Counted from the stretch's first letter, positions 2-62,339 are shown. The stretch is DNA of 64,000 nt from a virus (IMGVR_UViG_3300020403_002374:37582-101581), one strand, 5' to 3'. Program-made: numbers and translations. The notes: generated by a model from the letters alone, not told the origin.

Positions 2-517
2 ATAGCTAAAAAGTACCCAGTAATTATTGCTGATAGAAGCGAGAGGGTTTGTGATGAGAAACTGTCTACAGCAAATGATATGATATTTGATTTGGCTAGT
101 AGGGCAGACTCATCCGTTACAAACATTGTATGGGCACATTGCACAAATCCACTTATTGATGAGAAAATTTATGATGAAGCAATCGACATTTTTATCAAAG
201 GACAGTCAATGACGATGTTCGATTCGTTAGTTTCCGCATCAGAACTACGCAGTCATGTTTGGCAAGATTATGAACCTCTTAACTTTAACCCATACGGTGA
301 TCGTCATCCATTAGCTTCAGAGCTTGAACCATACTGTTATCAGAACGGTGGTATTTTCATTCAACCCAGAAAACAAATGGTGGATAATAAATATTTCTAC
401 GGCCAAAACCCACACTTATTTTTAATCGACGAATACGATGCAATTGACATAGATACACCAAAAGATTTTAAAATAGCTGAACTTTTATATGAGGACAAAT
501 ATGGAAACGCAAGATAA
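2..517 (+). CDS. Acylneuraminate cytidylyltransferase (CMP-nonulosonic acid synthetase, NeuA/PseF-like), 5'-truncated by window edge
   Basis: Frame is open from position 2 (IAKKYPVIIADRSER...). It carries the HCTNPL, YQNGGIFI and C-terminal AIDIDTPKDFKIAE motifs typical of NeuA-family enzymes. Confidence 0.85.
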   Translation: MAKKYPVIIADRSERVCDEKLSTANDMIFDLASRADSSVTNIVWAHCTNPLIDEKIYDEAIDIFIKGQSMTMFDSLVSASELRSHVWQDYEPLNFNPYGDRHPLASELEPYCYQNGGIFIQPRKQMVDNKYFYGQNPHLFLIDEYDAIDIDTPKDFKIAELLYEDKYGNAR

Positions 518-869
518 AACTTGGGGCAAAAATACGGTAATTCACAGTAGTGAAAATTCTATTGTTTGTTTTGCAGAAATAGATCCCGGTGGATTTTGTT
601 CGGTTCATATTCATGAGGACAGGCACAATTGGTTTCAGGTAGCAGAAGGTTCTGTTACCATCCATATATGGAATCATACCGATCAAGATGCAGAAGGTAT
701 ACCAGCAAATTATGAACTAACGTCAGATAGTGATCCAATTTGCCTTGAGGCTGGAATACCACACCAATTTTACAGTGAAGAAGGGTGCAAGCTAGTTGAA
801 GTTTATACGCCCGCATCTGACAGCCCTATTAATTTCGACGACATAATTAGACTGAGGTTAAATTTATGA
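501..869 (+). CDS. Cupin-fold protein (RmlC-like / type II mannose-6-phosphate isomerase-like), probable sugar isomerase or epimerase
   Basis: N-terminal KTWG, CSVHIH...NWFQV and GIPHQF cupin His motifs. Start moved to ATG 501, which follows a GAGGA RBS. Confidence 0.75.
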   Translation: METQDKTWGKNTVIHSSENSIVCFAEIDPGGFCSVHIHEDRHNWFQVAEGSVTIHIWNHTDQDAEGIPANYELTSDSDPICLEAGIPHQFYSEEGCKLVEVYTPASDSPINFDDIIRLRLNL

Positions 870-1456
870 GTGTAGATCAATACTACAACATGGAGCTTGA
901 GAGAGCAAGCGACATCAATGAGCACCTTCCGGTTTTGCTAGAACTTGCAAATGATTGTGATACAATTGTAGAGCTAGGAACAAGGTGGGTGGTAAGTACA
1001 TGGGCGTTTTTAAAATCTTCCGCAACAAGAATTACAATGTGCGACTTAAAAGAGCCAGATGTTTGGCATGATAGTCCAGAAAATCCAAGCCCAACACCTT
1101 GTAAGCTAGAAGAAGTCATCCAGTCTGCACCCGACAAAGATGTTAATTTTATTAAGGGTAGTAGCCTAGATTTAGAGATTACAGATACAGACCTGCTTTT
1201 TATCGACACTTGGCACTGTTACGATCAATTAAAAGCAGAATTGGACAAGCACGCTCACGCAGTAAATAAATATATTGTACTACACGATGTAGTGTTATTT
1301 AAATATGTTGGCGAAAACTTTTACGGTGATCAAACTCGTCAGTATGAAGGTCTGCAAAAAGCTGTAGATGAGTTCCTAGAAGAAAACAAGAACTGGTCTG
1401 TTCATCAATGGCATACAAACAATAATGGATTGGGAGTGCTAAAAAGAAATGACTAA
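866..1456 (+). CDS. Class I SAM-dependent methyltransferase (Methyltransf_24-like)
   Basis: IVELGTR motif I, DLLFIDTWHCYDQL, IVLHD and NNNGLGVL motifs. Confidence 0.85.
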   Translation: MSVDQYYNMELERASDINEHLPVLLELANDCDTIVELGTRWVVSTWAFLKSSATRITMCDLKEPDVWHDSPENPSPTPCKLEEVIQSAPDKDVNFIKGSSLDLEITDTDLLFIDTWHCYDQLKAELDKHAHAVNKYIVLHDVVLFKYVGENFYGDQTRQYEGLQKAVDEFLEENKNWSVHQWHTNNNGLGVLKRND

Positions 1457-2198
1457 ATTACAACTGCCTGATGTAGCAATTTTTACTTTCTGTTGGGGTA
1501 CAGAGCATGTAGAGAAGTCTCTTAGAGCCATGCTAATCGCAATGGATCAGGTAGATTTTAAGCGTAGCGTTCTAATTACTGATAGTGATAAAACTGATTT
1601 GTCGTTATTCGGTCAAGCTATTGACAAACACAATATCGAAGTCTGTGATATGAGTGTCGATCTCAATAGCAATTTACAGAATGATGATAAGAATCGAAGC
1701 GGTTTCTGTGAATCATTCGTTCAACAAACAAATAAATACATTTTGGATGATTTCTGTTTGAATGTTCAGCATGACTCGACTATAATAGATAGTACCAAGT
1801 GGGACAATCGTTTTTTGGATTACGACTACATCGGTGCCCCTTGGCCCATGAACATTATTCAAGCAAGCGATATGGTTGCTGGACGCATACAAGAGATACC
1901 GAACGTTGTTGGCAACGGAGGGTTCTCTTTGAGAACACGTAAGTTTGTAGAAGAATCGGCAAAGCTAGGTTGGGAACATAAGAACGAAGACCTCAATATT
2001 TGTGTTTTCAATTATGACACAATGACTTCAGCAGGAATCAAATTTGCACCACCTAGTTTAGCGGCTAAATTCTCAAAAGAACATCCAACGCCATATGGCA
2101 TGTTTTCCAGATCGTTACTATTTACATACGAGTCGTTTGGATTTCATGGCGACTTTAACGTAGCTGGCATGGATTTTATTGAACATTACAATTTATAA
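1449..2198 (+). CDS. DUF5672-like putative GT-A glycosyltransferase
   Basis: VQHDS, YDYIGAPW, VGNGGFSLR, NED and FGFH motifs are characteristic of this family. Confidence 0.8.
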   Translation: MTKLQLPDVAIFTFCWGTEHVEKSLRAMLIAMDQVDFKRSVLITDSDKTDLSLFGQAIDKHNIEVCDMSVDLNSNLQNDDKNRSGFCESFVQQTNKYILDDFCLNVQHDSTIIDSTKWDNRFLDYDYIGAPWPMNIIQASDMVAGRIQEIPNVVGNGGFSLRTRKFVEESAKLGWEHKNEDLNICVFNYDTMTSAGIKFAPPSLAAKFSKEHPTPYGMFSRSLLFTYESFGFHGDFNVAGMDFIEHYNL

Positions 2199-2206
2199 GG
2201 AATAAA

Positions 2207-2836
2207 ATGAAGGTTTTAGACACTAGAGATGATTATCTAGACTATGTAAAAACACTGTTACCACAAAACCCAAAGGTTCTAGAAATTGGTGTTGAATATG
2301 GTCATTTTTCGGAAAAGATTTTGAAGGTTCTACAACCCTCAGAATTGCATTTGCTAGACCCTTGGGAGTGGAATCCCGGCAACGGGTTGGTGTATCAGGA
2401 GGGGCATATGACAGGAACCCCTACTGCACACAGTAATGTGACAATGCAAATCAATATAGAAAGAAAATATGAGGCACAGATCTCTGCGGGACAAATCTAC
2501 GTTCATAGAGGTTACTCACATGAACTAGTCGATACCTTTGATACAGCCTACTTTGACTTTATCTATTTAGACGGGTGTCATTTGTACGAGTCTGTCAAGA
2601 AAGATATTGAGGGTTACATCAAAAAAGTCCAGCCAGATGGTATTTTGGGTGGTCACGATTATATTAGTCAAGAAACAAAGTTTGTGCAACAAGGTGTCGA
2701 GTACACAAACCAACTTGGTTACGGTATTAAACAAGCACTAGATGAATTTCTAGAGGTCAACCCTCAATTAGAATTGTGTGCGTTGGTCAGTAGTGACATG
2801 CCGTTTCCAGATTGGGCAATTAGGAGGAAAAGCTAA
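2207..2836 (+). CDS. Class I SAM-dependent methyltransferase (Methyltransf_24-like)
   Basis: VLEIGVEYG, LLDPW, FDFIYLDGCHLYE and GGHDY motifs. Confidence 0.88.
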   Translation: MKVLDTRDDYLDYVKTLLPQNPKVLEIGVEYGHFSEKILKVLQPSELHLLDPWEWNPGNGLVYQEGHMTGTPTAHSNVTMQINIERKYEAQISAGQIYVHRGYSHELVDTFDTAYFDFIYLDGCHLYESVKKDIEGYIKKVQPDGILGGHDYISQETKFVQQGVEYTNQLGYGIKQALDEFLEVNPQLELCALVSSDMPFPDWAIRRKS

Positions 2837-3903
2837 TGAAGGTTCTTTATATTGGATATTACAGAGAGCATAGTGATTGGTCGGAATCGGCTATAAATAA
2901 TATGCTTGCTCTAGAAAAGGCTGGGTGCGATGTTGTCGCAAGGTGCATAGAATTCAGTAAGGGTGAAACACCTAATGAAATTAAACATCTAGAAAACAAA
3001 GACCTAGAAGGTGTGGAGTACTGTATTCAACACGTATTCCCCCATCATATGATTGGAACTAATAAATTTAAAAAGAATGTCGGATATTTTTGTAATGAGC
3101 ATGTCGATATTCAACACTCTACTTGGGTAGAAAAACTTGAACTGATGGATGAGGTGTGGACACCGACTGGATCGGTAGGGGTCAAAATGCCTCACGCTGT
3201 TAGTCATGAAAAGTTTAGCAACAATTATTCTGGCATGTCCGTCCCAGCACTAGACGCTACATTTAAATTTTATAATATAGTAAATACAAACTCGCTACCT
3301 AGTGTTATCAAGGCTTTCCATAGTGAATTTAGCACATTTGAGCCAGTCAACCTGATTTTACAAGTAGACTCATTTCAACAAGACCAAGAACTTCACAATA
3401 CTCTAGAGTCTAAGATCACAGATATAAAAACAGGACTAGGTTTACAACCAGATCCTAGAATGTACAAGAGAGACTTTATCTCCACCAGTTGGGCATCACC
3501 GTTAAGTAAATTTCAGTTACACGACTATGCAGACTGTTACATTTCTAACAATAATCCATCTATCACTAGTCATGACATTGAAGCTGTGGCATTTGGAAAT
3601 ACACCTTTGGTAGCATCCTTAAATCCAATTGTTGACATTTTTGATTCTGTGCAAAAAATTAATAGTATTTATGTTTCAAAATCACGGTCAGAATCATCGT
3701 TGTTTAGAGATATGAATAACTCTCTAGACTTTTCAATTTCTGTGTGCGAAAGAGATTTGAGACAAAAAATGAGAGACACCTATGAAAAATGGAAACAAGA
3801 TCCAATGACTTCTATAGAAAATAGAAAAAATGGAATCAATGCTGTTGCAGAACTATCTCTAGAAAAAACAGGAGAAAAAATGAAGGAGGCTTTAAGTGTT
3901 TAA
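2836..3903 (+). CDS. GT-B fold glycosyltransferase-like protein (GT4-related, degenerate)
   Basis: MKVLYIG start, MDEVWTP, KAFHSEF...VNLIL and ADCYIS...DIEAVAFGNTP, which resembles the EAmaxGxP motif. The first Glu of the EX7E signature is absent. Confidence 0.65.
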   Translation: MKVLYIGYYREHSDWSESAINNMLALEKAGCDVVARCIEFSKGETPNEIKHLENKDLEGVEYCIQHVFPHHMIGTNKFKKNVGYFCNEHVDIQHSTWVEKLELMDEVWTPTGSVGVKMPHAVSHEKFSNNYSGMSVPALDATFKFYNIVNTNSLPSVIKAFHSEFSTFEPVNLILQVDSFQQDQELHNTLESKITDIKTGLGLQPDPRMYKRDFISTSWASPLSKFQLHDYADCYISNNNPSITSHDIEAVAFGNTPLVASLNPIVDIFDSVQKINSIYVSKSRSESSLFRDMNNSLDFSISVCERDLRQKMRDTYEKWKQDPMTSIENRKNGINAVAELSLEKTGEKMKEALSV

Positions 3904-4867
3904 AACTTTAAATATACTAGATTCTACAAACACGGGGCGTAAAGAAAAACTAAATATCTTGACTTTTAATACTCATGAGAGATATCAAACTCAGCTATCT
4001 AAAACTGGGCACGACTTTTATTGTTTTAATTTTGATCAAGGCAAAGAATGGTTTTCTGAACACGCACCGATGCCAGAAAATCACTATCAGCTACCGAAAA
4101 ACTCTGTTTACCCCGGAATTGTTTTTGATTTAATTCTAGTCCAAAGCAAATTTGGTCAGTTTCAAACGGCATCTAATATAAACTCAAAACTGCAACTACC
4201 AGTAGTGGTTTTAGAACATACTCTTCCGCACAAAAACTGGCCTCAAAACCATACGGATCAGTTCAGGTCAATGGTAGGTGAGAAAAATGTTTTTATCACA
4301 GAATACTCTAAAGGTAAGTGGGGTATTCCGGGTGATGTAATTTATCATTCTGTTGATACAAATGTGTTTAAACCAGCGAGTGGCGAGTCAAAAGCACAGG
4401 TTCTGACTGTTGCTCACGACTTCATCAATCGGGATTATGCTCTGAACTTTAAAGGGTGGGATCGGATTACTCAGGGGTTGAATAGGGTTGTTGTTGGAGA
4501 AACAGAGGGGTTATCTAAAGCAGCAGAATCTGTAGACGAGCTAGTAAAAGCGTATCAACAGTCTTTGGTATATATTAATCCAAGCACGCTCAGTCCTGTT
4601 CCTACGTCCATGCTAGAGGCTATGGCTTGCGGCTGTGCGGTCGTAACAACAGAAACGTGTGAGATTCCTAATTTTATTAAACACGGCGAGAATGGCTTTA
4701 TGTCGAACGATGAGACAGAACTAAGGGGGTACATCGAGAAACTACTTGCCGATCCCGAACTTGCAATACACATTGGTAATAATGCAAGACAAACTATTAA
4801 AGAAAAGTTTTCAGAAGAACGATTTATTAATGAATGGAACAAAATATTTTATGGAGTAGTAAAATGA
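3896..4867 (+). CDS. GT4-family glycosyltransferase
   Basis: HSVDTNVFKP, VYINPS...MLEAMACGCAVVTT, HGENGF and GNNARQTI...FSEERF form a classic GT4 C-terminal domain. Confidence 0.9.
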   Translation: MFKTLNILDSTNTGRKEKLNILTFNTHERYQTQLSKTGHDFYCFNFDQGKEWFSEHAPMPENHYQLPKNSVYPGIVFDLILVQSKFGQFQTASNINSKLQLPVVVLEHTLPHKNWPQNHTDQFRSMVGEKNVFITEYSKGKWGIPGDVIYHSVDTNVFKPASGESKAQVLTVAHDFINRDYALNFKGWDRITQGLNRVVVGETEGLSKAAESVDELVKAYQQSLVYINPSTLSPVPTSMLEAMACGCAVVTTETCEIPNFIKHGENGFMSNDETELRGYIEKLLADPELAIHIGNNARQTIKEKFSEERFINEWNKIFYGVVK

Positions 4868-5277: not shown

Positions 5278-6014
5278 TGGATTGTGATGGTTGCGTATTC
5301 AACATTATGGACAACAACCCTCCGTCCAGTGGTGGTCCTTGGGCTGGAAACCAAATTGGGTGCAAGGCGGGTAGAATTGAAAAGTATATTGAAAGAGGTG
5401 AAGCTACACTTTCTTTAGGTAGAAAATTCTATGAACTAAAGCGATTTTGCAATATGTACAGAGATGAGGATGGCGTAACCCCAGAGAAAGCAAGAAAGCA
5501 AGTAAAGCAAAATTTTGGGGTTGTTATCGAAGATAGTTTGGATGCAAACACTTGGGAAGAACTTTTAGAGTTAGTAGACAGGGTTTTGCAGATTGACTAT
5601 GATCCAGCACATATAAAAATCATTATCTCTACAAATAGAAAGCGTGGAGTTAACAACGTATGCACCTTGGTCGATAAAATGCGGAAAACCTTTAGGCACT
5701 CAAGAGCAGTCTTTCACGAACACGATGTACAAGATTTAAAGGAGTACGAAGATTTTTCTCAAATTACAAACGCTACCTATTTTGTAAACCTTAAAACTTG
5801 GAAGAATCCAAAATTTCAAAATGGATTTTTACAAGATATTGATGAAAGAACTAATGACCAACTGATACCTATTGTTATAGAAAAATTCGATGGGTTCTAC
5901 GTAGTTCTAAAACAAGCTGTCAACTCTGTATACTTAGACTTTTATGATTACGAAAAAACAGTAGAGGCTATTTATAAAGTAGCTCAGGAGGGCGACAGTG
6001 GGAAAGCGGAATAA
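5277..6014 (+). CDS. Hypothetical protein with Cys-rich N-terminus and a degenerate GT-A-like alpha/beta domain
   Basis: CDGC...C...FC cluster, then FGVVI...LQIDY...IKIIIS, reminiscent of a GT2 N-terminus. No DXD motif. Confidence 0.4.
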   Translation: MDCDGCVFNIMDNNPPSSGGPWAGNQIGCKAGRIEKYIERGEATLSLGRKFYELKRFCNMYRDEDGVTPEKARKQVKQNFGVVIEDSLDANTWEELLELVDRVLQIDYDPAHIKIIISTNRKRGVNNVCTLVDKMRKTFRHSRAVFHEHDVQDLKEYEDFSQITNATYFVNLKTWKNPKFQNGFLQDIDERTNDQLIPIVIEKFDGFYVVLKQAVNSVYLDFYDYEKTVEAIYKVAQEGDSGKAE

Positions 6015-6756
6015 CTCAACCTTCGTAGTCAGTCCCAAATCTAACGATAGCAATGGGAAAAGAGAAGAAAAAGTAACATTTATATTGCTTGCGGAAAACT
6101 ATGGGTACAGAATGAAATCTTATGGACCGCTTTCTTTGATAGATATACATGGTAAAACACTTTTAGAGCATCAAATTCAAGCAATCTCGTCAACATTTAT
6201 AAATTTTGAGATTATTCTTTGCTCTGGATTTGAAACAAATAAAGTATACCATTTTATACAAAACAATTTTCCACCAAGTTTGCCAATCAGAATTGTAGAA
6301 AATCAAGTATATTACCATTCAAACTGCTGCGAAGGTTTAAGGCTTTGCATGAATAACACTATGAACGATAAGATAGTCGTATGCGGTGGCGGTGTATTAC
6401 TAACAACGGACTATCTAAGGTCTTTAAATACTAGAAGATCTTCAATAATGTATCAGCTATCTGACAAGAAAGAAAATTTTGAAGTAGGTATAGTCAAAAA
6501 TGAAGCCAATAGATTAGAAAATCTTTCACTCGCAGTTAGGGACAGAGTTTGGACTGAGCTATTGTATATAACTGGAACACCACTTGTGAAATCCTTTTAC
6601 AATATGGTTTCTAAACCGGAACTAAAAAACAAATTCTTGTTTGAAGCAATAAATAATTGGAGGGGTAGAAAAAGTTTACACCTAGAAGAAAATGCAAATA
6701 ACTCTATAATTAAAATAGACAATATTAAAACACTGAAAAGGATCAAAAAGAAATGA
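5998..6756 (+). CDS. Nucleotidyltransferase-fold protein (NTP_transferase/LicC-like), degenerate signature
   Basis: ILLAENYGYRMKSYGPLSLIDIHGKTLLEHQI aligns by eye with LAAGxGxRM...PKxL. It also has IILCSGF and C-terminal KIDNIKTL. Key Gly, Lys and Asp residues are substituted. Confidence 0.7.
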   Translation: MGKRNNSTFVVSPKSNDSNGKREEKVTFILLAENYGYRMKSYGPLSLIDIHGKTLLEHQIQAISSTFINFEIILCSGFETNKVYHFIQNNFPPSLPIRIVENQVYYHSNCCEGLRLCMNNTMNDKIVVCGGGVLLTTDYLRSLNTRRSSIMYQLSDKKENFEVGIVKNEANRLENLSLAVRDRVWTELLYITGTPLVKSFYNMVSKPELKNKFLFEAINNWRGRKSLHLEENANNSIIKIDNIKTLKRIKKK

Positions 6757-8341: not shown

Positions 8342-9005
8342 AGTTATATCTTTTAGTTTGTGGGGTAATGACCCAAGATACACACAGGGTATGGTAAGAA
8401 ATGCAGAACTGGCTAAAGAAGTCTACCCAGACTGGACTGTAACTCTTTACGCACATCAAGATGTAAACCAAGACATATTGCAAGTTTTAGAAAACTTAGA
8501 TGTTCAGATTCGCTTGATGACTACTCAGAATTGGAAAGCAAGTATGTGGAGATTCTATCAAGCCGATGGGCCAAACACGGTTATCGTTAGAGATGCCGAT
8601 AGTAGAATTTCTTACAGGGAAAAATTTGCTGTCGATGAATGGCTTGCAAGTGACAAAGATTTTCATATCATAAGAGATCATCCTTATCACGCTGTACCAA
8701 TTATGGCTGGTATGTGGGGTGCAAGAAATGGAATCTTAAAAGGAATAACCGATCAGATTGAAAGATACGAAGTAGACAAATTCGGTGTAGATCAAGACTT
8801 TCTTAAAGATGTAGTTTTCCCCAAGGTTGTAAAAGAATCTTTTGTACATGATACCTTTTACGGTCATAACCCAATACCCATCGCACAAAGACATCCAGAT
8901 TTTTTCGTTGGGCAAGCGTATGATGGAGCCGACAAAATACTAGATGCCGATGGTAACTTCCAGAAATATTTTGAAGTGGAGAAAATAAATGCGGGTATTC
9001 GCTAA
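8334..9005 (+). CDS. GT-A-like glycosyltransferase
   Basis: KVISFSLWG...YPDW, MWRF, IVRDADSR (DXD), RDHPYH, AGMWG and DQDFL motifs. True start is probably ATG 8334. Confidence 0.7.
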   Translation: MTKVISFSLWGNDPRYTQGMVRNAELAKEVYPDWTVTLYAHQDVNQDILQVLENLDVQIRLMTTQNWKASMWRFYQADGPNTVIVRDADSRISYREKFAVDEWLASDKDFHIIRDHPYHAVPIMAGMWGARNGILKGITDQIERYEVDKFGVDQDFLKDVVFPKVVKESFVHDTFYGHNPIPIAQRHPDFFVGQAYDGADKILDADGNFQKYFEVEKINAGIR

Positions 9006-9801
9006 TGTAATGATACAAAACGAGGCTCTGATTCTACCGCTTGTCTATGAGTACTGGAAGGATTACCCTATTGACCAGTGGGTTTTCTACAACGATAATT
9101 CTACAGATGCCACTCTAGAAGTTATAAACAGTTTGTTTCCAACCGCTATGGTCTTTGACAACAAAGATCCAAACTTTAGCGAAGCTAGAAATAGAGGAAC
9201 AATGTTCGAGTATTCTAGGCAAAATGGTGCAGACTATGTACTTGCTATAGATGTGGATGAACTTCTTAGTGCTAATCTTGTAAATCATTGGTCGGAGCTT
9301 ACAAACTGCGAATCTGAGTGTCAATTGTATTGGTATAATGTCGTGGGATCTGTAAATAAAATGCGGCAAGATCCGAGTTATTTAGAAAACTACAGAACGT
9401 TCTTTGTTCCTACCGCAAAAGCTGGAATGTTTAACCCCGGACATGTGACGTATCATACACCGAGAACACCACCTGTGTTTTTACCACAAACCAAAAGGAA
9501 AGACGTTGGAGTTATCCATTTACAGTCTATAAATAAAAAATACTACGCTTTGAAACAGCTTTGGTATAAGCACTATGAGTGGGTAACTTGGAAAAAAGAT
9601 CCTAATTATTTAAACGCAATGTACGATGTGGTGGTTAATGGGTTGGATTTTTGTGAGCAAAATACCCCCGAAGAAATTGCTGGTGATTTAAAGTTCGATG
9701 CGTCTGTATACGACGAAATAGCTGAAATCAAAGGCTATAGACAATTTATTCTAAATAATTATAATCCAACACTTGTAACATTTGGAGAACAATACCTGTG
9801 A
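8989..9801 (+). CDS. GT2-like glycosyltransferase (Glyco_tranf_2_4 type)
   Basis: IQNEA, NDNSTDAT, ADYVLAIDVDE (DXD) and VIHL motifs. Confidence 0.85.
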   Translation: MRVFANVMIQNEALILPLVYEYWKDYPIDQWVFYNDNSTDATLEVINSLFPTAMVFDNKDPNFSEARNRGTMFEYSRQNGADYVLAIDVDELLSANLVNHWSELTNCESECQLYWYNVVGSVNKMRQDPSYLENYRTFFVPTAKAGMFNPGHVTYHTPRTPPVFLPQTKRKDVGVIHLQSINKKYYALKQLWYKHYEWVTWKKDPNYLNAMYDVVVNGLDFCEQNTPEEIAGDLKFDASVYDEIAEIKGYRQFILNNYNPTLVTFGEQYL

Positions 9802-53799: not shown

Positions 53800-53800
53800 C

Positions 53801-54442
53801 CTAGAGTCCTGCAAAAATTGAATCAACGACCTTTGAAATTTCTTTTTCTCTTCCTACAAACATTCTAGTTATAAAGTTGTTATTATCATTGCCAGCAAAT
53901 TCTGGTGGAATCCTCCAAGCACCGCCAAAGGCCATGAAACCACCACCAGTTCTACCAAACGAGGTGTCAGGTTCATATGAGAACCCATAGACAATAGTTT
54001 TTGTGCCAGCAAATAAAAGCCAGTTTATCCACTCTAACGACTGACCACCTTCTGCAACAATACTTGCGTCTGGTATCGCTAGAATATTTTTGAAATCTGA
54101 GGGTTGGAAAGACATGTTTATCTTTATGTCTTGTAATTTTGACCCCTTTATTACTTTTACTTCTATACTTTTAGATATGGCGTTTACAATATCATTTATT
54201 GCTGATTCCGCTTTAGCGGGAACTAGTCCTATTTGTGCTCCAAGAGATTGAGGTAAATTCCCACCCCTTAGTGATTGAACCTCTGGAGAAGATTCTACCC
54301 AACTTGGAATTAAATTTTGTAACCTTTTTTTGACATTTTTTACTCTAGCATCAATGATAACACTAATCTCTTCAAACATAGCTTTCTCTATGTCTTTTTT
54401 GATTGATGCATCTGCATCTACTAGGTTTAATGAAATACTCAT
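53801..54442 (-). CDS. Putative neck/tail completion protein
   Basis: Located between the closure and terminator genes. C-terminal WLL.G...GRTG...W.IPPEFAG...NFITR. Confidence 0.5.
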   Translation of the reverse strand: MSISLNLVDADASIKKDIEKAMFEEISVIIDARVKNVKKRLQNLIPSWVESSPEVQSLRGGNLPQSLGAQIGLVPAKAESAINDIVNAISKSIEVKVIKGSKLQDIKINMSFQPSDFKNILAIPDASIVAEGGQSLEWINWLLFAGTKTIVYGFSYEPDTSFGRTGGGFMAFGGAWRIPPEFAGNDNNNFITRMFVGREKEISKVVDSIFAGL

Positions 54443-54924: not shown

Positions 54925-54939
54925 CTTTAAAGCTCCATG

Positions 54940-55140: not shown

Positions 55141-55199
55141 TTTATTCTCTCCAAGTTATTTAAAATGATTATAAATTAAACTAAATTCCTGACTACCCA

Positions 55200-58100
55200 T
55201 TAGGTATTAACGACTTCATAATCTCCAGTGATCGGATTAAACATGTACCATCCAACGCCGTCGCCAGCGACCGCTGCAAAAGCCATCGTTGGTCCAGATC
55301 CATGAGGATTTAAAGCTGGAAATACGAGACAAACCGCCCCAATTTCTTTAGAGATTATTGCACCACGAGCATCTTTAAGTTGGAAATTGTCACCAGATCC
55401 AACCTTAGTTGTCGCCGTGGGAAGCGTTAAGTATCCGAAGTTATTTACAATAATGTTTCTACCAGAATTTTTGGTATATTCAACTACATCTTCAGTATTC
55501 TTTGCGTTACCATTAGATTGCCTATCGGTATACGTCTCAGCGACAAACATCGGCTCAACCTGAATAACTGATGCGGTTGTTGGTGTAGCGATGTCCGCAG
55601 CAACTTTTAAACGTATGTGGGCATCATTTCCATCTGGCGGTGTGATATTTAAAACAGCATTATTTATCGTTTGCAGGACTTCATTTTCATCTGCTCCATG
55701 ATCAGGTAATGGTTTACCAATATGGAGGTTTGTGCGAGTATCAAGTGGGGAAATAATACCACAAATGTGATCTCCAATATTGAGTATTCCCGGTGTGTCT
55801 TTAGGTGCCCAGCCACAATCTCTTGTTGGCTCTTCTGATTGATTTCTTATAAGGATGGAGTTTCTATTTCCATCCATTTTAAACCCAGCGTAAGACCCCA
55901 ACATTACACTGTGATCTAACTGGTGAGACTCTCGTGCTGCTGATGTACCAATAGCAACAAAATTTATTTTTTGATTGCTTCCCTCTGCAACAGATTCAGA
56001 TCCAGAAGCAGCATACGCAGCATTTCGACCAATTGCTACACAGTTAGCTGTGTAGTAAGAATCTGCTAGAGCATAAGTACCTATACCGATAGAGGCTTCA
56101 TTATTTCCAGAAGCAGACAAACCAGCCTGTAAACCCATATAAATTGACTGTTTACTATTTTGTGTGTATGCACCCGCTTCTCTACCAACTGATATTGTGT
56201 CGTCACCATTGAAACTATGCTTATTAGCTGCCGTACCTATGGAAATTGAATTTGGAGAATCCCATGTTTGTTTAGCAGCAGAGGTTCCCACTGCGATGGA
56301 ATCTTTAGAACCACTACTTGCTGAGAACGCAGAATCACCAATAGCTATAGACCTGCGATTGTAAGAAGAGGCTATAGACGCATTATTACCAATTGAAATA
56401 ACTCTTGGGCTTTCTTCCAATAATGCACCCGCATTATAGCCGATATTAACCGCCTGTGCAGATCCAGAAGCCATATGACCAGCTAGGTTTCCGATATGTA
56501 CGGAACCACCAATGTCATGATTAAGAAGGGACCAGACACTTACACTACTATCCTCAGTATTATCCGCAGTTGCTCCAACGACCAATGTCTTACCATCGCT
56601 TGTAAGGGCAACGCTTGAACCAAACCGTGTATTTGTTCCATTCCCCGCCAAATCACTAGACCAAGATGTTGCCATAGATTGGTCAACTGTTGGGTTTAGA
56701 TCTTCCCAGTCAGACCCATTCCAGCGGAAGGTATGAACTCGTCCAGTTTGTTGTCCAGAATATTGCCATACATATTCTCCAACAACGATAGTTTTACCAT
56801 CATCAGAAATGTCAACGTCGTACCCAAAGTAACTAGCGGTGGCTCCGTTCGTTGCTGTGATTGTAGAACCAAGTTGAACAAATTCACCACTCTCATTTGA
56901 TTTGTAAACTTTGACCTCTCCAGTGGAACTACTGACTTGGGAGTTTCCTATTGCTATAATGCTTCCATCTGCATTTAATGCAATAGCATACCCGTCAGTA
57001 AAGGTTGTAGCGTCATTGATCCTTTCTGTAACAGTTTGAAGGGCTGGATTAATGTCGAGAATTGCAGCACCTTTTGTGGTAGAAACAAACCCCGGCTGAA
57101 CAGCTAAGACACGACCATCACTACTTAATGCTAAGTCACCAACATCGCTAGTTCCGATAATAGTTTGATCTACTTCAGTCCAATTTGCTGAACCCGCAAA
57201 CGTGCTTGGTGCATAAGTGTTTCTAAAGGCGATTTTAACTTTATTAGTAGAATTACTTCTAAATGCAATAACATTACCATCTGCACTTACAGTCACAGCA
57301 TAACCAAAAGAAGCGTCGGTCCCCGCAAATGTTTTCTGTAAAGTATACGGGCCGTTTGTTACATCGTCTGTATCATTCCAGTAATAGACTTGTACTTGGG
57401 ATTGCCCAGTGGAGGAGCTTCCATGAGTTCTTCCAACTACTAAAGTTCTGCCATCGGCACTCAATGCCACCTGATCGTTTCTATTAAGAGCATTATCTCC
57501 ATATAATATCTTCACTAACTCAGCCCCTTTTGAGGCTAAAGAGTAACCGTCTTCTGGTTTTTTTATCTTAAATACGGCGACAGCACCCTGTGAAGATATG
57601 TCATTTTCGGTGACTGGCATTGCCGACCGTTCACTTGCACTGGCCCAGTAAGCATATCTCATACTAGCCGCGACTATACTGCCGTCTGCACTGATAGCAA
57701 CATTAGCACCAAGCTGTACATTATCAATAGAGCTTCTAATGAGCATCTCTGGAATATCAGCATTATCTAAACTACCCCAAATCTTTGTGCCAGCAGCAAA
57801 GTCACGAGAATCATCACCTTTATTGAACATGCCAGCGTTATGACCAAGTGCAACAGTTGTAGATTCATCTCTACTTCCATAACCAGCAAGTCGGCCCATA
57901 AATATACTATCGTAGGCATTGTCTACATCACCACGATCCACAGGTAATGTTTGATATAGGGCTTCAATATCTGGTTGTATAATAATATTATCGCTATTAT
58001 TTAACTCCAGTACTGATAGATGACCTGACCCATTTGGGTCCATAATATAAAATTCGTCTTTAAGAATAAGACCACTAGCACCTTGAGTTCCAACACCAAT

Positions 58101-61100
58101 TCTACCAAACTCACCAGATGCCCAAGTAGCAATACCGCTAATAGCTACTCCGCTAGTTGTATTTTCTAAAATCTGACCCCTGAGATATTGTCCAGAATCA
58201 ATTATTGTGTTATAGAGAACGCCCGATAACCCAGATGCACCAATTCTGAAATAATTAGTAGCGGGGTCATATGCAGCGTGAACACCAGAAACTCCACTAA
58301 CTGTAACAATATCATTATTTACAATTGGATCATTAGCAAATTCACCATTGGTAAGACTAAATTGATAAGTGATAGTTGGTTCATAGCCAACAACCAAGAT
58401 ACCAGAATTGTTTGTACCATCTTGTAAACGAAATGAATCCACATTAACGCCGCTAATTCCAGATACCACAATTACCGGAGGAACAGCAACATCAGTTTGA
58501 GTCATTAAGAATGGATCGTTACCAGCTATTGCAGCCGCTTCACCACTACTAGCAACTTTAAACGCATAATCATTAGAACTAATTTGAGGCTGAAGAACAC
58601 CAGACAATTCTAAAGCACCGAACTTGAAAAATCTACCTACCTGAGTAACCTCACACCCATCAACACCACTAAACGTAGCTAACTGCCCGTCTGTCCAAGT
58701 GGTGGAAGCGTCGGCGGGGATTTCTGTATCGTTTGCGACCTTTAACGTTGTAGCACCAGCAGTATCAACCTGCGTTCCATTCCAATACAAAGTACCGCCA
58801 TTATTGTATAGTTTATTTACTATACTGTCTGGAACATGATCACCCAGTCTTAATCCACCGCTTGGATTCATAAATCCACTAGAGATGACATCTCCACTAT
58901 TAGTAATATGATATATGGTGGTGCCATCACCCGATTGTAAAACCATGTAAGGCGTTGCAGATCCAGAGCCCTTATGTTGCAAAACAAAAGCTGGTTCATT
59001 CTCATCTAATGGTCTGATAAATAATGTTCCGCTAGGAGAAGCGTTATCTAAATCACCAATGCCGATTCTGGAGTTGTAAATATCTCCTGCTATGGTGTTA
59101 CCAATATTGATCTTACCACTAGCTTCGTGTGTAAAGAAACTAGCTGATGCTCCAGAAGCTATCAGTTCTATATTTTCATTTCCAGAAACCGCAACGCCAG
59201 CCCTGTAACCAAGGTAAATATTAAAGTTTCCACTCGCTTCTGATGCGGCTTTTCTACCAACAGCGACCGTATCGTTAAGCTCTAATCCAGATTGGGCGGC
59301 TGAAGAACCAATAGCAAATACATCTTTAAGACTTTCACCATATCTACCCGCATGTTGACCGAGAGCAACCACGTCTCGTAGACCAGATGCTTCTCCGACT
59401 ACAAAGCCACCAAAACCGGCAACCTGTTCAAAATCAAAAGACCCACTAGCTGGTCTATTACCAATAAGGTAAGATCTAATAATTCCACTAGCACCCTTGA
59501 GAGCGTTAGTTCCAATACCGACAACGTTGGTGATTCCAGAAGACTCTACGCCAGCATCATCGCCAATTAAGACTGCGGTATCATAATGTTCAACACCAGA
59601 GCCAGCATTTGGTCCAATTGCAACTAGTTTGTTGGCATCTTTAATGCCCCAACCAGCATTATATCCAAGAATAACAGATTCGTCAACACCACTAGCAAAC
59701 ATGCCAACGTGTGGACCTATAAATACAGAATAATCATTCAGATCACCAGAAGCTAAAGCCTCAATACCAATAGCTATAACGCCAGAGGTTTGATCTAACT
59801 TATACGCAGCTTGTTTTCCAATAAATGTACCACCGAAGTTACCGCTAGAAAGTTGACCGGCATTAACACCTAAGAATATGTTTGCAAAATTTTCTGTATA
59901 CGTGTCTGAATTAGTACCAGTAAAATTTCCAATCCTGTAATTACTATCTAGGAATAGAATTTGATTGAAATGCCCGGAGTTGGCAGCTAAGTCGCCACCT
60001 CGAACATGAAGGTTGTAAGCGGCAGAGGTACTGGAAGCATCACCCCCAATTTGAAGTCTATTGTTTGTAGCATCATAATAGATACCACTATCGTAGGTGA
60101 TAGATCCACTTCCGGCATAAATAGCAACCATACCATCTTTAAACAAACGGCCTGCTACATTTTCAGATGTTGTATCCAAACCTTTATTTTTTTGAATTAC
60201 AGCACCAATATTGTCAGCGATATCGCTTGGCAAATCTTTAAACTCTAACTGTCTAAATGTAGGTGGAGCATCTGTGCAAGGATCGCAATCAGCAGAGGGA
60301 CCAGCAAAGAACGTACCAGCGGTTTGATTTCCAAACTCTATAATTTGATCTACGACACCACTTAGATTTATAATACCATTAGAAGAAGATCCAACCCTAT
60401 TTCTTCTAAATGGCTCGTACTGTTTTCCACCAGAAGCAGTCAAAAATGTATCAGTTAATTGACCGCCAGAGAACATAATGCCAGAACCACCTTCAATAAA
60501 GCCAGAAGCTCTAATTGCTGCGGTGTTATCAAGATTACCAGCAATGTCAATTGCATATTCTGGTGACGATTGACCTATACCTAAATAACCTTGACTATCA
60601 TCAAATACAATGTCGGAAGAATAGTTTAGTATTTGTTCGTTTACCCAGAAAGCCAAGCCACTCTGTTTTGGCTCCTTTGTATTAGGCTCCAATCCATAAC
60701 CTTGGTATACAGCGGTTTTTCCGGGGTAAGTTACGAACACCTCTTTTACACCCGGAACAAAATTCACAGGCTGTCCAGATGCACTAAAATCGCCACCACT
60801 AGCACCAACAACATCTCCTACTACGATACCGTCAACATCAAGGTTTGCACGCTCTGTAATTTGATAAAAGGTTACACCGGGGTATTCGTCAAATGTGAGA
60901 CCACTAGGGTCTGTGAATGGTCCACCGTCAATACCAACACCGCTAATAGCAGCAGATCTAGTGAGCCAAAGAGGATAAAATTTTCCAGACCTACCCGATG
61001 TTGGCCCACTATTACTAGTACCATCAACAAAATAAGGACCAACTTGAATGTTAGAACTTCTAATTGGATTTCTGGTGATACTTCTGGTGCTACCGTCCAT

Positions 61101-61286
61101 AAAGTAGACGCCAGAACCAACTTCATACTTAGAATTGTCAGTTACCGCATAAAATACCGTATCGCCAGACGCATAGAAATCAGAAAACGAACTAAAGCCT
61201 GCCGCAGCACCATCTAACGATATGTTATTGGTGCCTTGGACTCTAGACGTTTCTTTAATTCTATCGCCAAGAAAAAAGTTTGACAT
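55200..61286 (-). CDS. Fibre/spike protein (2028 aa) with YadA-head-like beta-roll repeats and an inserted FG-GAP-like beta-propeller
   Basis: N-terminal DRIKETS anchor-like motif and 14-residue xxAIGxxA repeats in two blocks. The propeller has AISADG, ALSADG, TVSADG, ALSSDG, ALNADG, DISDDG and ALTSDG blades. Confidence 0.8.
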   Translation of the reverse strand: MSNFFLGDRIKETSRVQGTNNISLDGAAAGFSSFSDFYASGDTVFYAVTDNSKYEVGSGVYFMDGSTRSITRNPIRSSNIQVGPYFVDGTSNSGPTSGRSGKFYPLWLTRSAAISGVGIDGGPFTDPSGLTFDEYPGVTFYQITERANLDVDGIVVGDVVGASGGDFSASGQPVNFVPGVKEVFVTYPGKTAVYQGYGLEPNTKEPKQSGLAFWVNEQILNYSSDIVFDDSQGYLGIGQSSPEYAIDIAGNLDNTAAIRASGFIEGGSGIMFSGGQLTDTFLTASGGKQYEPFRRNRVGSSSNGIINLSGVVDQIIEFGNQTAGTFFAGPSADCDPCTDAPPTFRQLEFKDLPSDIADNIGAVIQKNKGLDTTSENVAGRLFKDGMVAIYAGSGSITYDSGIYYDATNNRLQIGGDASSTSAAYNLHVRGGDLAANSGHFNQILFLDSNYRIGNFTGTNSDTYTENFANIFLGVNAGQLSSGNFGGTFIGKQAAYKLDQTSGVIAIGIEALASGDLNDYSVFIGPHVGMFASGVDESVILGYNAGWGIKDANKLVAIGPNAGSGVEHYDTAVLIGDDAGVESSGITNVVGIGTNALKGASGIIRSYLIGNRPASGSFDFEQVAGFGGFVVGEASGLRDVVALGQHAGRYGESLKDVFAIGSSAAQSGLELNDTVAVGRKAASEASGNFNIYLGYRAGVAVSGNENIELIASGASASFFTHEASGKINIGNTIAGDIYNSRIGIGDLDNASPSGTLFIRPLDENEPAFVLQHKGSGSATPYMVLQSGDGTTIYHITNSGDVISSGFMNPSGGLRLGDHVPDSIVNKLYNNGGTLYWNGTQVDTAGATTLKVANDTEIPADASTTWTDGQLATFSGVDGCEVTQVGRFFKFGALELSGVLQPQISSNDYAFKVASSGEAAAIAGNDPFLMTQTDVAVPPVIVVSGISGVNVDSFRLQDGTNNSGILVVGYEPTITYQFSLTNGEFANDPIVNNDIVTVSGVSGVHAAYDPATNYFRIGASGLSGVLYNTIIDSGQYLRGQILENTTSGVAISGIATWASGEFGRIGVGTQGASGLILKDEFYIMDPNGSGHLSVLELNNSDNIIIQPDIEALYQTLPVDRGDVDNAYDSIFMGRLAGYGSRDESTTVALGHNAGMFNKGDDSRDFAAGTKIWGSLDNADIPEMLIRSSIDNVQLGANVAISADGSIVAASMRYAYWASASERSAMPVTENDISSQGAVAVFKIKKPEDGYSLASKGAELVKILYGDNALNRNDQVALSADGRTLVVGRTHGSSSTGQSQVQVYYWNDTDDVTNGPYTLQKTFAGTDASFGYAVTVSADGNVIAFRSNSTNKVKIAFRNTYAPSTFAGSANWTEVDQTIIGTSDVGDLALSSDGRVLAVQPGFVSTTKGAAILDINPALQTVTERINDATTFTDGYAIALNADGSIIAIGNSQVSSSTGEVKVYKSNESGEFVQLGSTITATNGATASYFGYDVDISDDGKTIVVGEYVWQYSGQQTGRVHTFRWNGSDWEDLNPTVDQSMATSWSSDLAGNGTNTRFGSSVALTSDGKTLVVGATADNTEDSSVSVWSLLNHDIGGSVHIGNLAGHMASGSAQAVNIGYNAGALLEESPRVISIGNNASIASSYNRRSIAIGDSAFSASSGSKDSIAVGTSAAKQTWDSPNSISIGTAANKHSFNGDDTISVGREAGAYTQNSKQSIYMGLQAGLSASGNNEASIGIGTYALADSYYTANCVAIGRNAAYAASGSESVAEGSNQKINFVAIGTSAARESHQLDHSVMLGSYAGFKMDGNRNSILIRNQSEEPTRDCGWAPKDTPGILNIGDHICGIISPLDTRTNLHIGKPLPDHGADENEVLQTINNAVLNITPPDGNDAHIRLKVAADIATPTTASVIQVEPMFVAETYTDRQSNGNAKNTEDVVEYTKNSGRNIIVNNFGYLTLPTATTKVGSGDNFQLKDARGAIISKEIGAVCLVFPALNPHGSGPTMAFAAVAGDGVGWYMFNPITGDYEVVNT

Positions 61287-61304
61287 TATATCCTCACTAA
61301 TCTA

Positions 61305-62339
61305 TTATGGATTGCTCTCAGTGTAAGTTGGAGACAGACTCATCGTTGGAACGACTCCAGATGATTCTCCGGGGCTATAACCGTAAAATACCAAATCTAT
61401 TCTATCGGCATCAGAATAAAGACCGGCCTGATTAATAATTGCTACAGAACAAGTTCTTGTGTTGCCACCGTGAGTGCTAATTCTATCAACAAGACCAACG
61501 GTATTGATTTCAAAGTCGGTAGGATCATCAGAGTCGGTTCTTGCATTTGCAGTTCCAACAGCAGTATATTCATTATTCTCAAATGTTTCGGGTAGGAATG
61601 TAATTGTGAATTTTCCGGGGCTGTCCCTTTGAACACCACTAATTCCATAGTAAGACCTAACAACTGGTAGATTCTCAACACCATCAAAGGTTCCACTTGC
61701 GTCAAAATTGATCCAAGCCTTCGCGAACCCCTTAGCCGTATTTGGGATAAAAGAATTATCTCTCAAAAAGTTAAGTTGACCGGACACATTGATTTCTTGT
61801 TCAATGGCGTCTGGTGAAGTTTGTACAAATTGAAGTCCCACATTTTCGATACCAGAAGTGTTGAACCAGAATTGATCCATAGCAAAATTGCCACGCATGG
61901 CGTTTCCGCGACCAACCAAGCTAACACCATCTCTATGAAGATATTGATGGTGATCATCATCTGCCAAAGATGATTGTTCTAACTCTCCATGATCAATACT
62001 TCCGGCTCCAAGCCAAGGCTCTGTTTGCCTCTTTGTTCTTAGTGATACAGTATCTGCGAACGGAAAGAAGATTCCAGACTCTACAACCAAGTCCCCATGC
62101 GTCTGACTAGCGACGATTGGATCTGGATCTCCAGCAGAGTCAGACTTACTAACCCTTAAAACGTTGAAGAACGGAAATTCTTCGTCTGTGTCACCGCTGG
62201 CAACGATTCTATTTATGGAAAACGCAATATCTTCCATGTTGTGTCGAACGTCAAAAGCAGAAATTAAACCGGCGTTGTTATCCGCTAAATCCGACGAGAT
62301 GCTGGCAATAAGTTCGCCAGATGTTTTCATAGTAGGCAT
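61305..62339 (-). CDS. Virion fibre-associated protein
   Basis: ADNNAGLISAFDVR N-terminus, DDDHHQYL motif and an AKAWINFD...SYYGISGV...GKFTITF domain often seen at fibre C-termini. Contains 8 Ser-Gly sites. Confidence 0.6.
   Translation of the reverse strand: MPTMKTSGELIASISSDLADNNAGLISAFDVRHNMEDIAFSINRIVASGDTDEEFPFFNVLRVSKSDSAGDPDPIVASQTHGDLVVESGIFFPFADTVSLRTKRQTEPWLGAGSIDHGELEQSSLADDDHHQYLHRDGVSLVGRGNAMRGNFAMDQFWFNTSGIENVGLQFVQTSPDAIEQEINVSGQLNFLRDNSFIPNTAKGFAKAWINFDASGTFDGVENLPVVRSYYGISGVQRDSPGKFTITFLPETFENNEYTAVGTANARTDSDDPTDFEINTVGLVDRISTHGGNTRTCSVAIINQAGLYSDADRIDLVFYGYSPGESSGVVPTMSLSPTYTESNP

What the first reader, a model, noticed from the sequence alone, without database searches (positions are those of the whole stretch)
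2..62339. Candidate phage virion O-glycosylation system: Ser-Gly-studded structural proteins beside a soluble glycan synthesis operon
Seen (manual, approximate counts): Ser-Gly occurs about 63 times in the 2028-aa fibre, about 54 of them in the first ~1090 aa (1 per ~20 aa). It occurs about 100 times in the 4440-aa protein, 8 times in the 344-aa (against 1 Gly-Ser), 8 in the 639-aa, 6 in the 263-aa, 5 in the 242-aa and 5 in the terminator-like protein. In contrast there are only about 8 each in the 1773-aa and 1512-aa proteins and about 23 in the Gly-rich 2182-aa TMP, and it is rare in the chaperones and enzymes. Both TCN and AGY Ser codons are used, so the signal is at protein level and is not a DNA repeat. 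It recurs across unrelated folds. The facing operon encodes sugar activation, many GTs and methyltransferases, with no flippase, polymerase or initiating phosphoglycosyl transferase visible. Established: Ser-Gly is the acceptor sequon for xylosyltransferase-initiated glycosaminoglycan attachment in animals, and virus-encoded virion glycosylation is known in chloroviruses, mimiviruses and some mycobacteriophages. Inference: this phage decorates exposed virion proteins at Ser-Gly sequons with a methylated fucose/nonulosonate-containing glycan, a proteoglycan-like coat. I am not aware of such a sequon being described for phages.
Basis: partly seen in the sequence, partly recalled or inferred. Interest (0 to 1): 0.93.

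Follow-up and report, generated by a model that had tools for sequence, protein, structure and literature searches.

The report
Conserved Ser-Gly sites on phage tails
The tail-tip and fibre proteins of this uncultured marine phage family carry the dipeptide Ser-Gly about three times too often, at conserved, serine-specific sites, next to a membrane-free set of sugar-transferase genes, so these may be sugar-attachment sites, but no chemistry shows it and a purely structural turn motif is almost as likely.

Summary

- **Strength:** SG is the one extreme outlier among all 400 dipeptides (z 10-12). It is in-frame only, and GS is at expectation.
- **Specificity:** Thr rarely replaces the Ser.
- **Breadth:** 120 orthologs of the giant protein show a median SG O/E of 2.6. 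T4 and T5 fibres do not (0.3-1.7).
- **Origin of the excess:** it lies in old, conserved sites (7 of 8 in the 344-aa protein are 94-100% invariant).
- **Not fold-required:** divergent orthologs of the same architecture keep only about a quarter of the sites.
- **Convergent:** sequence-unrelated tail proteins of a sister subclade are also SG-rich, with the same flanks, [A/P/V]-S-G-[V/I/L].
- **Exempt proteins:** head proteins, the tape measure, two large tail proteins and the enzymes are not enriched.

The facing gene island is real and has no predicted membrane-spanning proteins. Three adjacent GT-B transferase genes are conserved across the ten genomes examined. Fucose synthesis is supported; nonulosonate activation is not.

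Glycosylation at SG is plausible (about 0.38) but untested. A structural turn motif is nearly as likely (about 0.35).

Unchecked earlier notes of this scan report similar Ser-Gly-type motifs in other, unrelated phages.

The parts
29077..42399 (-). 4440-aa giant tail-tip protein. It has FG-GAP_2 propeller repeats and a ConA/LamG-type lectin jelly-roll at about residues 930-1260. SG 103 against 34.6 expected.
   Evidence: Fold match Z 15.7 to 5ho0_A. 120 orthologs have a median SG O/E of 2.58.
55200..61286 (-). 2028-aa fibre-like protein. SG 63 against 25.6 expected, 54 of them in the first 1090 aa. Part of the SG lies in a periodic 'vaIGxxAGxxaSG' repeat. One FG-GAP_2 match.
   Evidence: Fibre-position ORFs of most of the 67 related loci are enriched 2.5-3.4x.
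61305..62339 (-). 344-aa fibre-associated protein. SG 8 against 3.0 expected, GS 1. Seven of the 8 SG sites are 94-100% invariant in 119 homologs.
   Evidence: (phrog_11355, tail fiber).
27158..29077 (-). 639-aa tail protein, SG 8 against 4.7 expected. SG is 80% conserved among orthologs, against 39% for all dipeptides.
26427..27155 (-). 242-aa tail protein, SG 5 against 1.7 expected. The G002 ortholog has 5 against 1.1.
15712..16503 (-). 263-aa tail-module protein, SG 6 against 2.5 expected.
52819..53826 (-).
51392..52762 (-). 456-aa conserved tail protein, used as the family marker. SG 6 against 3.4 expected; weak enrichment.
42416..48964 (-). 2182-aa tape measure protein. Not SG-enriched (23 against 16.6 expected). 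Serves as an internal negative control.
   Evidence: PhageMin_Tail.
21094..26415 (-). 1773-aa tail protein of unknown family. Not enriched (8 against 9.5 expected); orthologs range 0.28-1.09; SG is not conserved (0.22).
16554..21092 (-). 1512-aa fast-evolving tail protein. Not enriched (8 against 9.9 expected).
2836..3903 (+). 355-aa GT-B (GT1-like) glycosyltransferase, a member of the conserved GT triad.
   Evidence: No Pfam hit for this protein itself. Its orthologs in G004, G005 and G006-G010 score over the PF00534 cut-off. Orthologs found by BLAST in all four close relatives.
3896..4867 (+). 323-aa GT1/GT4 glycosyltransferase, a member of the conserved triad.
5998..6756 (+). 252-aa sugar-1-phosphate nucleotidyltransferase-like enzyme (sugar activation). 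It is not a CMP-nonulosonate synthetase.
11936..12871 (+). 311-aa GDP-L-fucose-synthase-like SDR enzyme.
   Evidence: NF047922, 274 bits, best match but below the equivalog cut-off. Absent from G004 and G005.
11286..11939 (+). 217-aa FkbM-family methyltransferase, found only in G000 among the genomes compared.
2207..2836 (+). 209-aa Methyltransf_24 methyltransferase.
1449..2198 (+). 249-aa DUF5672 protein.
8989..9801 (+). 270-aa GT2-like glycosyltransferase.

Best explanation
The serine of [A/P/V]-Ser-Gly-[V/I/L], placed at loops and strand ends of the tail-tip and fibre proteins, is the acceptor of a cytoplasmic O-glycosylation.

Proposed mechanism:
1. One or more of the three conserved soluble GT-B (GT4-type) transferases start the glycan on folded or folding tail proteins before assembly.
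2. The variable tailoring enzymes extend and modify it: further GTs, GDP-fucose-synthase-like, FkbM and Methyltransf_24 methyltransferases and, in this genome, a sulfotransferase.
3. The glycan leaves the cell on the virion at lysis, so no lipid carrier, flippase or polymerase is needed.

Shown:
- The statistical anomaly.
- Its Ser specificity and site conservation.
- Its convergence in unrelated proteins.
- The soluble GT island.

Inferred:
- That the sites are modified at all.
- Which enzyme reads them.
- What the sugar is.
For: - **Size of the anomaly.** SG is the only dipeptide outlier (z 10-12). It is in-frame only, GS is at expectation and TG is depleted.
- **Ser specificity.** In 119 homologs of the 344-aa protein Thr appears at only one of the seven conserved SG sites, in 3 of 119 sequences.
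- **Lineage-specific constraint.** In close orthologs the S of SG is kept at 0.68, against 0.45 for other Ser. In 30%-identical orthologs of the same architecture only about 25% of the sites are SG, and they are no better kept than background. The fold therefore does not demand them.
- **Convergence.**
  - The large tail proteins of the G005/G007 subclade have no BLAST homology to the giant or the fibre, and at least one carries a different domain (YWTD repeat).
  - They are nevertheless SG-rich (2.0-2.8x) with the same flanks: P, A or V at -1 and V at +1.
  - GS, AG and DG control sites lack these flanks.
  - The marker tree needs at least two changes of state.
- **Who is exempt.** The internal or non-virion proteins (TMP, chaperones, enzymes) are not enriched.
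- **The island.**
  - It has no transmembrane protein.
  - Its GT-B triad is syntenic in 9 of 10 family genomes; two of the three members are found in the tenth, which is 81% complete.
  - The ThyA-family enzyme needed for hydroxymethyl-base DNA glycosylation is present in only 2 of 5 genomes.
- **Precedent.** TibC heptosylates serines 'but not threonine' in the TibA beta-helix in the cytoplasm. One mapped site lies in ...QNSGGAV... (PMC4358343).
Against: - No modification has been observed.
- Exposure of the serines could not be measured, because the models were poor.
- The excess lies in ancient, nearly invariant sites, and lineage-specific SGs are only 1.2-1.5x chance. This is the pattern of structural residues rather than of a drifting glycan coat.
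- The flanks are hydrophobic and strand-like. Part of the fibre's SG sits at a fixed place in a periodic beta-roll-like repeat.
- When the S is lost the G usually stays.
- Head proteins and two large tail proteins (1773 and 1512 aa) are not enriched.
- G004 and G006 have the GT core but weak SG enrichment (O/E 1.7 and 1.4).
- No gene tracks the strength of the trait.
- Three SG sites of the 344-aa protein persist in about 80% of remote homologs at 31-45% identity, as fold-intrinsic sites would.
Confidence: 0.38

Rival explanations
1. Structural micro-motif without any modification. [A/P/V]-S-G-[V/I/L] is a favoured strand-turn-strand, beta-arc or beta-bulge element of the beta-rich fibre, propeller and jelly-roll domains of this lineage. 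Gly takes the positive-phi position and Ser caps the backbone. The GT island serves something else.
For: - The sites are ancient and nearly invariant, not turning over.
- The flanks are hydrophobic and strand-like.
- In the one confident domain, all 9 SG sites lie in loops or within 3 residues of a strand end.
- In the fibre, SG recurs at one position of a periodic repeat.
- G is retained when S is lost.
- Three sites of the 344-aa protein persist in remote homologs.
- The GT core is present where SG enrichment is weak.
Against: - T4 and T5 fibres show no such excess.
- Orthologs of the same architecture at 30% identity lack about 75% of the sites.
- Thr, Asn and Asp, the usual equivalents in capping turns, rarely substitute.
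- Two large tail proteins of the same virion do not use the motif.
- The same flanks recur in sequence-unrelated proteins of another subclade.
- In the low-confidence model of the 344-aa protein, the sites fall in mixed secondary-structure contexts.
Confidence: 0.35
2. Another serine-directed chemistry reads the motif, through a host or phage enzyme not recognised here. Candidates are phosphorylation, acylation, ADP-ribosylation or an ester cross-link that hardens the tail. The glycan island is unrelated to it.
For: The same Ser specificity, lineage-specific constraint and convergence as for the best explanation. No phage gene follows the strength of the trait, which would fit a host-encoded reader that differs between hosts.
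Against: No candidate enzyme was identified. The only large enzyme set of unknown target beside the tail genes is the glycan island.
Confidence: 0.1
3. Avoidance of chemical damage. Long-lived extracellular tail proteins avoid the deamidation- and isomerisation-prone Asn-Gly and Asp-Gly turns and use Ser-Gly instead.
For: - NG is depleted in the giant orthologs (median O/E 0.67) and DG is at 0.77.
- NG is at about 0.5 across the virion proteins of this genome, against about 1.0 in its enzymes.
- In the divergent orthologs the G position of SG often aligns with D or N.
Against: - The SG surplus in the giant protein (+68) far exceeds the NG, DG and TG deficits together (about -25).
- N and D make up only about 9 of 105 replacements of the Ser.
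- The 1773-aa protein avoids NG without using SG.
- NG depletion does not follow SG strength across genomes.
Confidence: 0.07

Closest known systems
Virion O-glycosylation of mycobacteriophages by phage-encoded glycosyltransferases (Freeman et al. 2023, as summarised in PMC12619734)
   Same: Phage-encoded soluble GTs lie beside the structural genes, and the proposed product is a glycan carried on virion proteins made in the cytoplasm.
   Different: - There the glycans sit at the C-termini of capsid and tail-tube subunits. Here the head proteins are not enriched, and the candidate sites are internal, conserved Ser-Gly positions in tail-tip and fibre proteins.
- The island here is far larger, with about 20-30 genes.
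- Nothing has been shown chemically here.
- The primary paper was not held in the library.
Bacterial autotransporter heptosyltransferases TibC/AAH acting on TibA/AIDA-I (PMC4358343)
   Same: Many serines (not threonines) of a repetitive beta-helical surface protein are O-glycosylated in the cytoplasm. One mapped site is a Ser-Gly-Gly.
   Different: - The enzyme family differs: BAHTs are heptosyltransferases, while the proteins scanned here gave GT1/GT4 and GT2 hits only.
- A second mapped TibA site is Ser-Ala, whereas SA is not enriched here.
- The substrates here are phage tail proteins of several folds.
Xylosyltransferase-initiated glycosaminoglycan attachment at Ser-Gly in animal proteoglycans
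   Same: A Ser-Gly dipeptide is the candidate acceptor. This genome also encodes a Sulfotransfer_2-family protein.
   Different: - The flanks here are A/P/V and V/I/L, not acidic, and D is depleted at -3.
- No GT14/XylT-type enzyme was found in the proteins scanned.
- The sulfotransferase occurs only in this genome, not across the family.
Capsid and fibril glycosylation of chloroviruses and mimiviruses by virus-encoded cytoplasmic pathways (from general knowledge)
   Same: A large virus-encoded glycan pathway without membrane steps, including methyltransferases and 6-deoxyhexose synthesis.
   Different: Those are eukaryotic giant viruses with other acceptor types. No homology of acceptors or sequon is implied.

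Membership tests
Phage-encoded virion glycosylation (mycobacteriophage type) | Phage-encoded soluble glycosyltransferases next to the structural genes | tested here: met
   GT1 and GT2 genes lie on the + strand and converge on the tail operon. The GT-B triad is conserved in the family.
Phage-encoded virion glycosylation (mycobacteriophage type) | Glycan shown on virion proteins by mass spectrometry or glycan staining | not testable with these tools
   The phage is uncultured and no proteomic data were available.
Phage-encoded virion glycosylation (mycobacteriophage type) | Acceptors at the C-termini of capsid and tail-tube subunits | tested here: not met
   Head-module proteins of the complete relatives G002 and G001 are not SG-enriched. 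The candidate sites are internal.
BAHT (TibC/AAH)-type cytoplasmic Ser O-glycosylation | Serine-only acceptors in repetitive beta-rich surface proteins | tested here: inconclusive
   Ser-specific enrichment and conservation are shown, but modification is not.
BAHT (TibC/AAH)-type cytoplasmic Ser O-glycosylation | Enzyme of the heptosyltransferase (BAHT) family | tested here: not met
   Pfam scans of the island proteins gave only GT1/GT4, GT2 and GT8 families.
Xylosyltransferase-type proteoglycan sequon | Ser-Gly flanked by acidic residues | tested here: not met
   The -1 position is A, P or V; the +1 position is V; D is depleted at -3.
Lipid-carrier surface-polysaccharide loci (Wzx/Wzy or ABC type) | Initiating phosphoglycosyl transferase, flippase or polymerase with several transmembrane helices | tested here: not met
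   The hydropathy scan finds no multi-span protein in the island. The PAP2-family protein upstream has no segment over the threshold.
Phage DNA hydroxymethyl-base glycosylation (T4 type) | dNMP hydroxymethylase of the thymidylate-synthase family encoded by the phage | tested here: inconclusive
   PF00303 matches in only 2 of 5 genomes. None is found on this contig, which is only 61% complete. Other hydroxylase routes were not tested.
FG-GAP propeller / ConA-like lectin tail proteins | FG-GAP repeats and a lectin-type jelly-roll in the giant protein | tested here: met
   PF14312, E 1e-19. VIA-align Z 15.7, rmsd 3.0 over 198 residues to 5ho0_A domain 4.

The most novel reading that the evidence does not exclude
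[A/P/V]-Ser-Gly-[V/I/L] is a true O-glycosylation sequon, read in the cytoplasm by the conserved phage GT-B triad. It gives the tail tip and fibres of a widespread family of roughly 170-kb marine phages a virus-made, lineage-variable (methylated, fucosylated, sometimes sulfated) glycan. This would be the first defined acceptor motif for phage virion glycosylation. It may relate to the Ser-Gly-type motifs that this scan has noted in other large phages.
Probability: 0.35. Interest if true: 0.85.

Novelty: new variant of a known kind. Interest (0 to 1): 0.62.

Why it matters
Virion glycosylation by phage-encoded enzymes has been shown only for some mycobacteriophages, and no acceptor motif is known for it. 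Many large environmental phages carry big, membrane-free glycan gene sets whose target is unknown.

A short, serine-specific, conserved motif that marks only the outward tail proteins gives a concrete, testable candidate for that target. The tests are peptides to look for in metaproteomes, proteins to co-express with three named transferases, and Ser-to-Ala or Ser-to-Thr variants.

If it holds, it would bear on how phages in the sea shield or tune their adhesion organelles. It would also offer a way to predict glycosylated phage proteins from sequence.

If it fails, the motif is still an unusually strong, lineage-specific structural signature of phage fibre folds that structural biologists could explain.

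Tried and rejected
- **DNA-level cause:** rejected. There is no off-frame excess of SG-encoding hexamers, and mixed codons are used.
- **Low-complexity or tandem-repeat cause:** rejected. Contexts are diverse in the giant protein, and shuffles within each protein serve as the null.
- **Generic property of fibres:** rejected. T4 and T5 give 0.3-1.7.
- **Extended motifs noted elsewhere in this scan** (TxSG, SGS, SGxT, S[AG]xT): none adds to bare SG here, and SA is not enriched.
- **A switched motif in the weak-SG lineages:** none found.
- **A gene that tracks trait strength across 7 genomes:** only an RNR subunit, a GMP-reductase-like gene and a Methyltransf_24 family partly follow it. None is convincing.
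- **A relative without the GT core:** none among 10 genomes.
- **Structure mapping:**
  - The AF2 model of the 344-aa protein reached pLDDT 66, and giant residues 600-1300 reached 51.5. Both are too poor to measure exposure.
  - Foldseek on the 344-aa model gave no match at E <= 0.001.
- **Identity of the 1773-aa and 1512-aa proteins:** no PHROG or PDB sequence match.
- **Cultured relatives:** none in the phage collection. The tail marker gave no hit, and the terminase reached only 25% identity to Bacillus phages.
- **Host:** only mixed MAG bins (Flavobacteriales twice, SAR202, Aliivibrio).
- **Literature:**
  - Freeman 2023 is not held in the library.
  - No paper describing a Ser-Gly motif in phage tails was found.

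Full report
**What is in the window.**
- The window is the right-hand 64 kb of a single 101.6-kb phage contig, which CheckV estimates at 61% complete.
- The + strand (2-15156) ends a long early and middle region. That region holds an RNR, a DnaB-like helicase, a split DnaE, several more GTs, a sulfotransferase and a GalE-like epimerase upstream of the window.
- The - strand (15220-63735) is a tail module. It holds a PhageMin_Tail tape measure, a 4440-aa FG-GAP protein, a 2028-aa fibre-like protein and smaller tail proteins.
- Head genes are missing from the contig.
- Complete relatives are 167-176 kb.
- No cultured relative exists in the phage collection.
- MAG bins hint weakly at Flavobacteriales hosts.

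- Within-protein shuffles give z 11.8 for the giant protein and 8.7 for the fibre.
- GS is at expectation. TG is depleted in the fibre and the small SG-rich proteins, and NG is depleted in most virion proteins.
- The signal exists only in the reading frame: 103 SG-encoding hexamers in frame against 11 and 13 off-frame. It uses all Ser and Gly codons.
- Of 400 dipeptides SG is the sole extreme outlier, with z 10-12 against less than 4 for the next.
- Smaller tail proteins (344, 242, 263, 639 and 335 aa) share the excess at 1.7-2.9x.
- The tape measure, the 1773-aa and 1512-aa proteins, the chaperone-position proteins and all enzymes do not.
- T4 and T5 fibre and tail proteins lie at 0.3-1.7, so this is not a general property of fibres.

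**It is a family trait.**
- 67 related viral contigs were found. The fibre-position ORF is enriched 2.5-3.4x in most of them, and their tape measures are not.
- 120 orthologs of the giant protein have a median SG O/E of 2.58 (range 1.97-3.37). GS is 1.03, TG 0.84 and NG 0.67.
- 120 homologs of the 344-aa protein have a median of 3.31.
- In the complete genomes G002 and G001 the head-module proteins are not enriched. The virion module as a whole has 368 SG against 200 expected, and the rest of the proteome 119 against 101.

**How the sites evolve.**
- Among close orthologs SG is the best-conserved dipeptide: 0.61-0.83 against 0.21-0.39 for all dipeptides. SS, SV and SD are poorly kept.
- In the non-enriched 1773-aa protein SG is not conserved.
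- In the 344-aa protein seven of eight SG sites are 94-100% invariant in 119 homologs whose mean site identity is 52%, and Thr almost never replaces the Ser.
- The excess is carried by shared sites. Lineage-specific SGs are only 1.2-1.5x chance.
- The divergent orthologs G004 and G006 align over about 4000 residues at 30-32% identity. They keep only about a quarter of the sites, no better than background Ser and Gly, and their SG O/E is 1.7 and 1.4.
- Remote homologs of the 344-aa protein keep three deep sites in about 80% of cases and lose the others.
- Most sites are therefore a clade-specific overlay on a fold that does not need them.
- Caveat: loop misalignment at 30% identity inflates the apparent loss.

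**Convergence.**
- The G005/G007 subclade has large tail proteins with SG O/E of 2.0-2.8.
- These proteins have no BLAST homology to the giant or the fibre, and the one with a Pfam hit carries a different domain (YWTD repeats). Their tape measures are homologous to this phage's.
- Their SG sites show the same flanks as here: P, A or V at -1, V at +1, then hydrophobic residues. GS, AG and DG control sites do not.
- On a five-marker tree the order is core, then G006, then G004, then (G005, G007). Strong and weak states therefore alternate, and at least two changes are needed.

**Structure.**
- Both AF2 models were poor.
- The one confident domain, giant residues about 930-1260, is a ConA/LamG-type lectin jelly-roll with Z 15.7 to 5ho0_A.
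- All nine of its SG sites lie in loops or within three residues of a strand end.
- Part of the fibre's SG sits at one position of a periodic IG..AG...SG repeat.

**The island.**
- In the window it holds:
  - two GT-B transferases,
  - GT2-like proteins,
  - DUF5672,
  - Methyltransf_24 and FkbM methyltransferases,
  - a GDP-L-fucose-synthase-like enzyme,
  - a sugar-1-phosphate nucleotidyltransferase-like enzyme that is not a CMP-nonulosonate synthetase.
- No multi-span membrane protein is present.
- A triad of GT-B genes (567, 355 and 323 aa) is syntenic across the ten genomes examined. All three members are present in nine genomes and two of three in G006. The tailoring genes vary from genome to genome.
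- The 567-aa GT falls in virus-dominated GT4 clusters.
- ThyA-family genes occur in only 2 of 5 genomes, so DNA hydroxymethyl-base glycosylation is not a family-wide alternative.

**Reading.**
- A soluble, conserved GT core with a variable tailoring set needs a cytoplasmic acceptor that leaves with the virion.
- A Ser-specific motif that is constrained in one lineage and convergent in another, and that is confined to the outward tail proteins, is the best candidate acceptor.
- TibC/AAH give a precedent for Ser-only cytoplasmic hyperglycosylation of beta-rich surface proteins, with one Ser-Gly site (PMC4358343).
- Several findings count against this reading:
  - the sites behave like old structural residues;
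  - the head is exempt;
  - two large tail proteins are exempt;
  - the GT core is present where the trait is weak;
  - nothing chemical is known.
- I put glycosylation at SG at about 0.38, a purely structural micro-motif at about 0.35, another Ser chemistry at about 0.10 and damage avoidance at about 0.07.

**Earlier scan notes.** Unchecked AI notes of this scan report related Ser-Gly-type motifs in outer proteins of several unrelated large phages. I tested their extended motifs here, and only bare [APV]SG[VIL] applies.

Noticed in passing
window 42416-48964 (TMP) and its orthologs in G002, G001 and G006: Asn-Gly is strongly avoided in the tape measure proteins: 5 against 10.9 expected here, 1 against 12.1 in G002, 2 against 9.2 in G001 and 1 against 15.8 in G006. 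It is depleted about 2-fold across the virion proteins but not in the enzymes. The cause may be helix content or avoidance of deamidation.
   Followed up: partly
upstream of the window, L002:2628-9017 (G000 22628-29017): The glycan island extends beyond the window. It includes a DUF1501 (sulfatase-like) protein, a PAP2-family protein, a GT8+GT1 fusion (661 aa), a GT2 and a Sulfotransfer_2-family protein. Most of these are absent from the four close relatives, which hints at a sulfated glycan specific to this genome.
   Followed up: partly
window 2836-4867, plus the 567-aa gene at L002:14105-15808: Three GT-B glycosyltransferase genes form a syntenic core in 9 of the 10 family genomes examined (two of three in G006), while the surrounding sugar-tailoring genes vary. 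This is the pattern of a conserved initiating machinery with a diversifying glycan.
   Followed up: yes
window 38620-39612 (giant protein, about residues 930-1260): A ConA/LamG-type lectin jelly-roll lies inside the giant tail protein. It matches carbohydrate-binding modules and a cyanopodophage tailspike (Z 12-16) and may be a glycan-binding receptor domain.
   Followed up: partly
window 29077-42399: Ser codons in SG are AGY in 54% of cases, against 31% for other serines of the same protein. This may be a trace of Gly(GGY)-to-Ser(AGY) origins or a codon-pair preference.
   Followed up: no
window 61305-62339, residues 1-70: The N-terminal ~70 residues of the 344-aa protein recur at 55-82% identity in many short database proteins. 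These may be contig fragments, or the segment may be a modular tail-attachment domain. The motif resembles N-terminal adaptor domains of other phage fibres.
   Followed up: no
window 7760-8251, - strand: Two small ORFs (74 and 85 aa), each with one hydrophobic segment, lie antisense to or overlapping the + strand ORF 7631-8341. They are probably spurious.
   Followed up: no
window 54925-55199: A 275-nt gap without an ORF separates the fibre gene from the next tail gene in an otherwise tightly packed operon. It could be an internal promoter or terminator.
   Followed up: no
window 16554-26415: The 1773-aa and 1512-aa tail proteins match no Pfam, PHROG or PDB sequence. The 1512-aa protein evolves fast (28-36% identity among close relatives), as expected of a distal receptor-binding protein.
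   Followed up: partly
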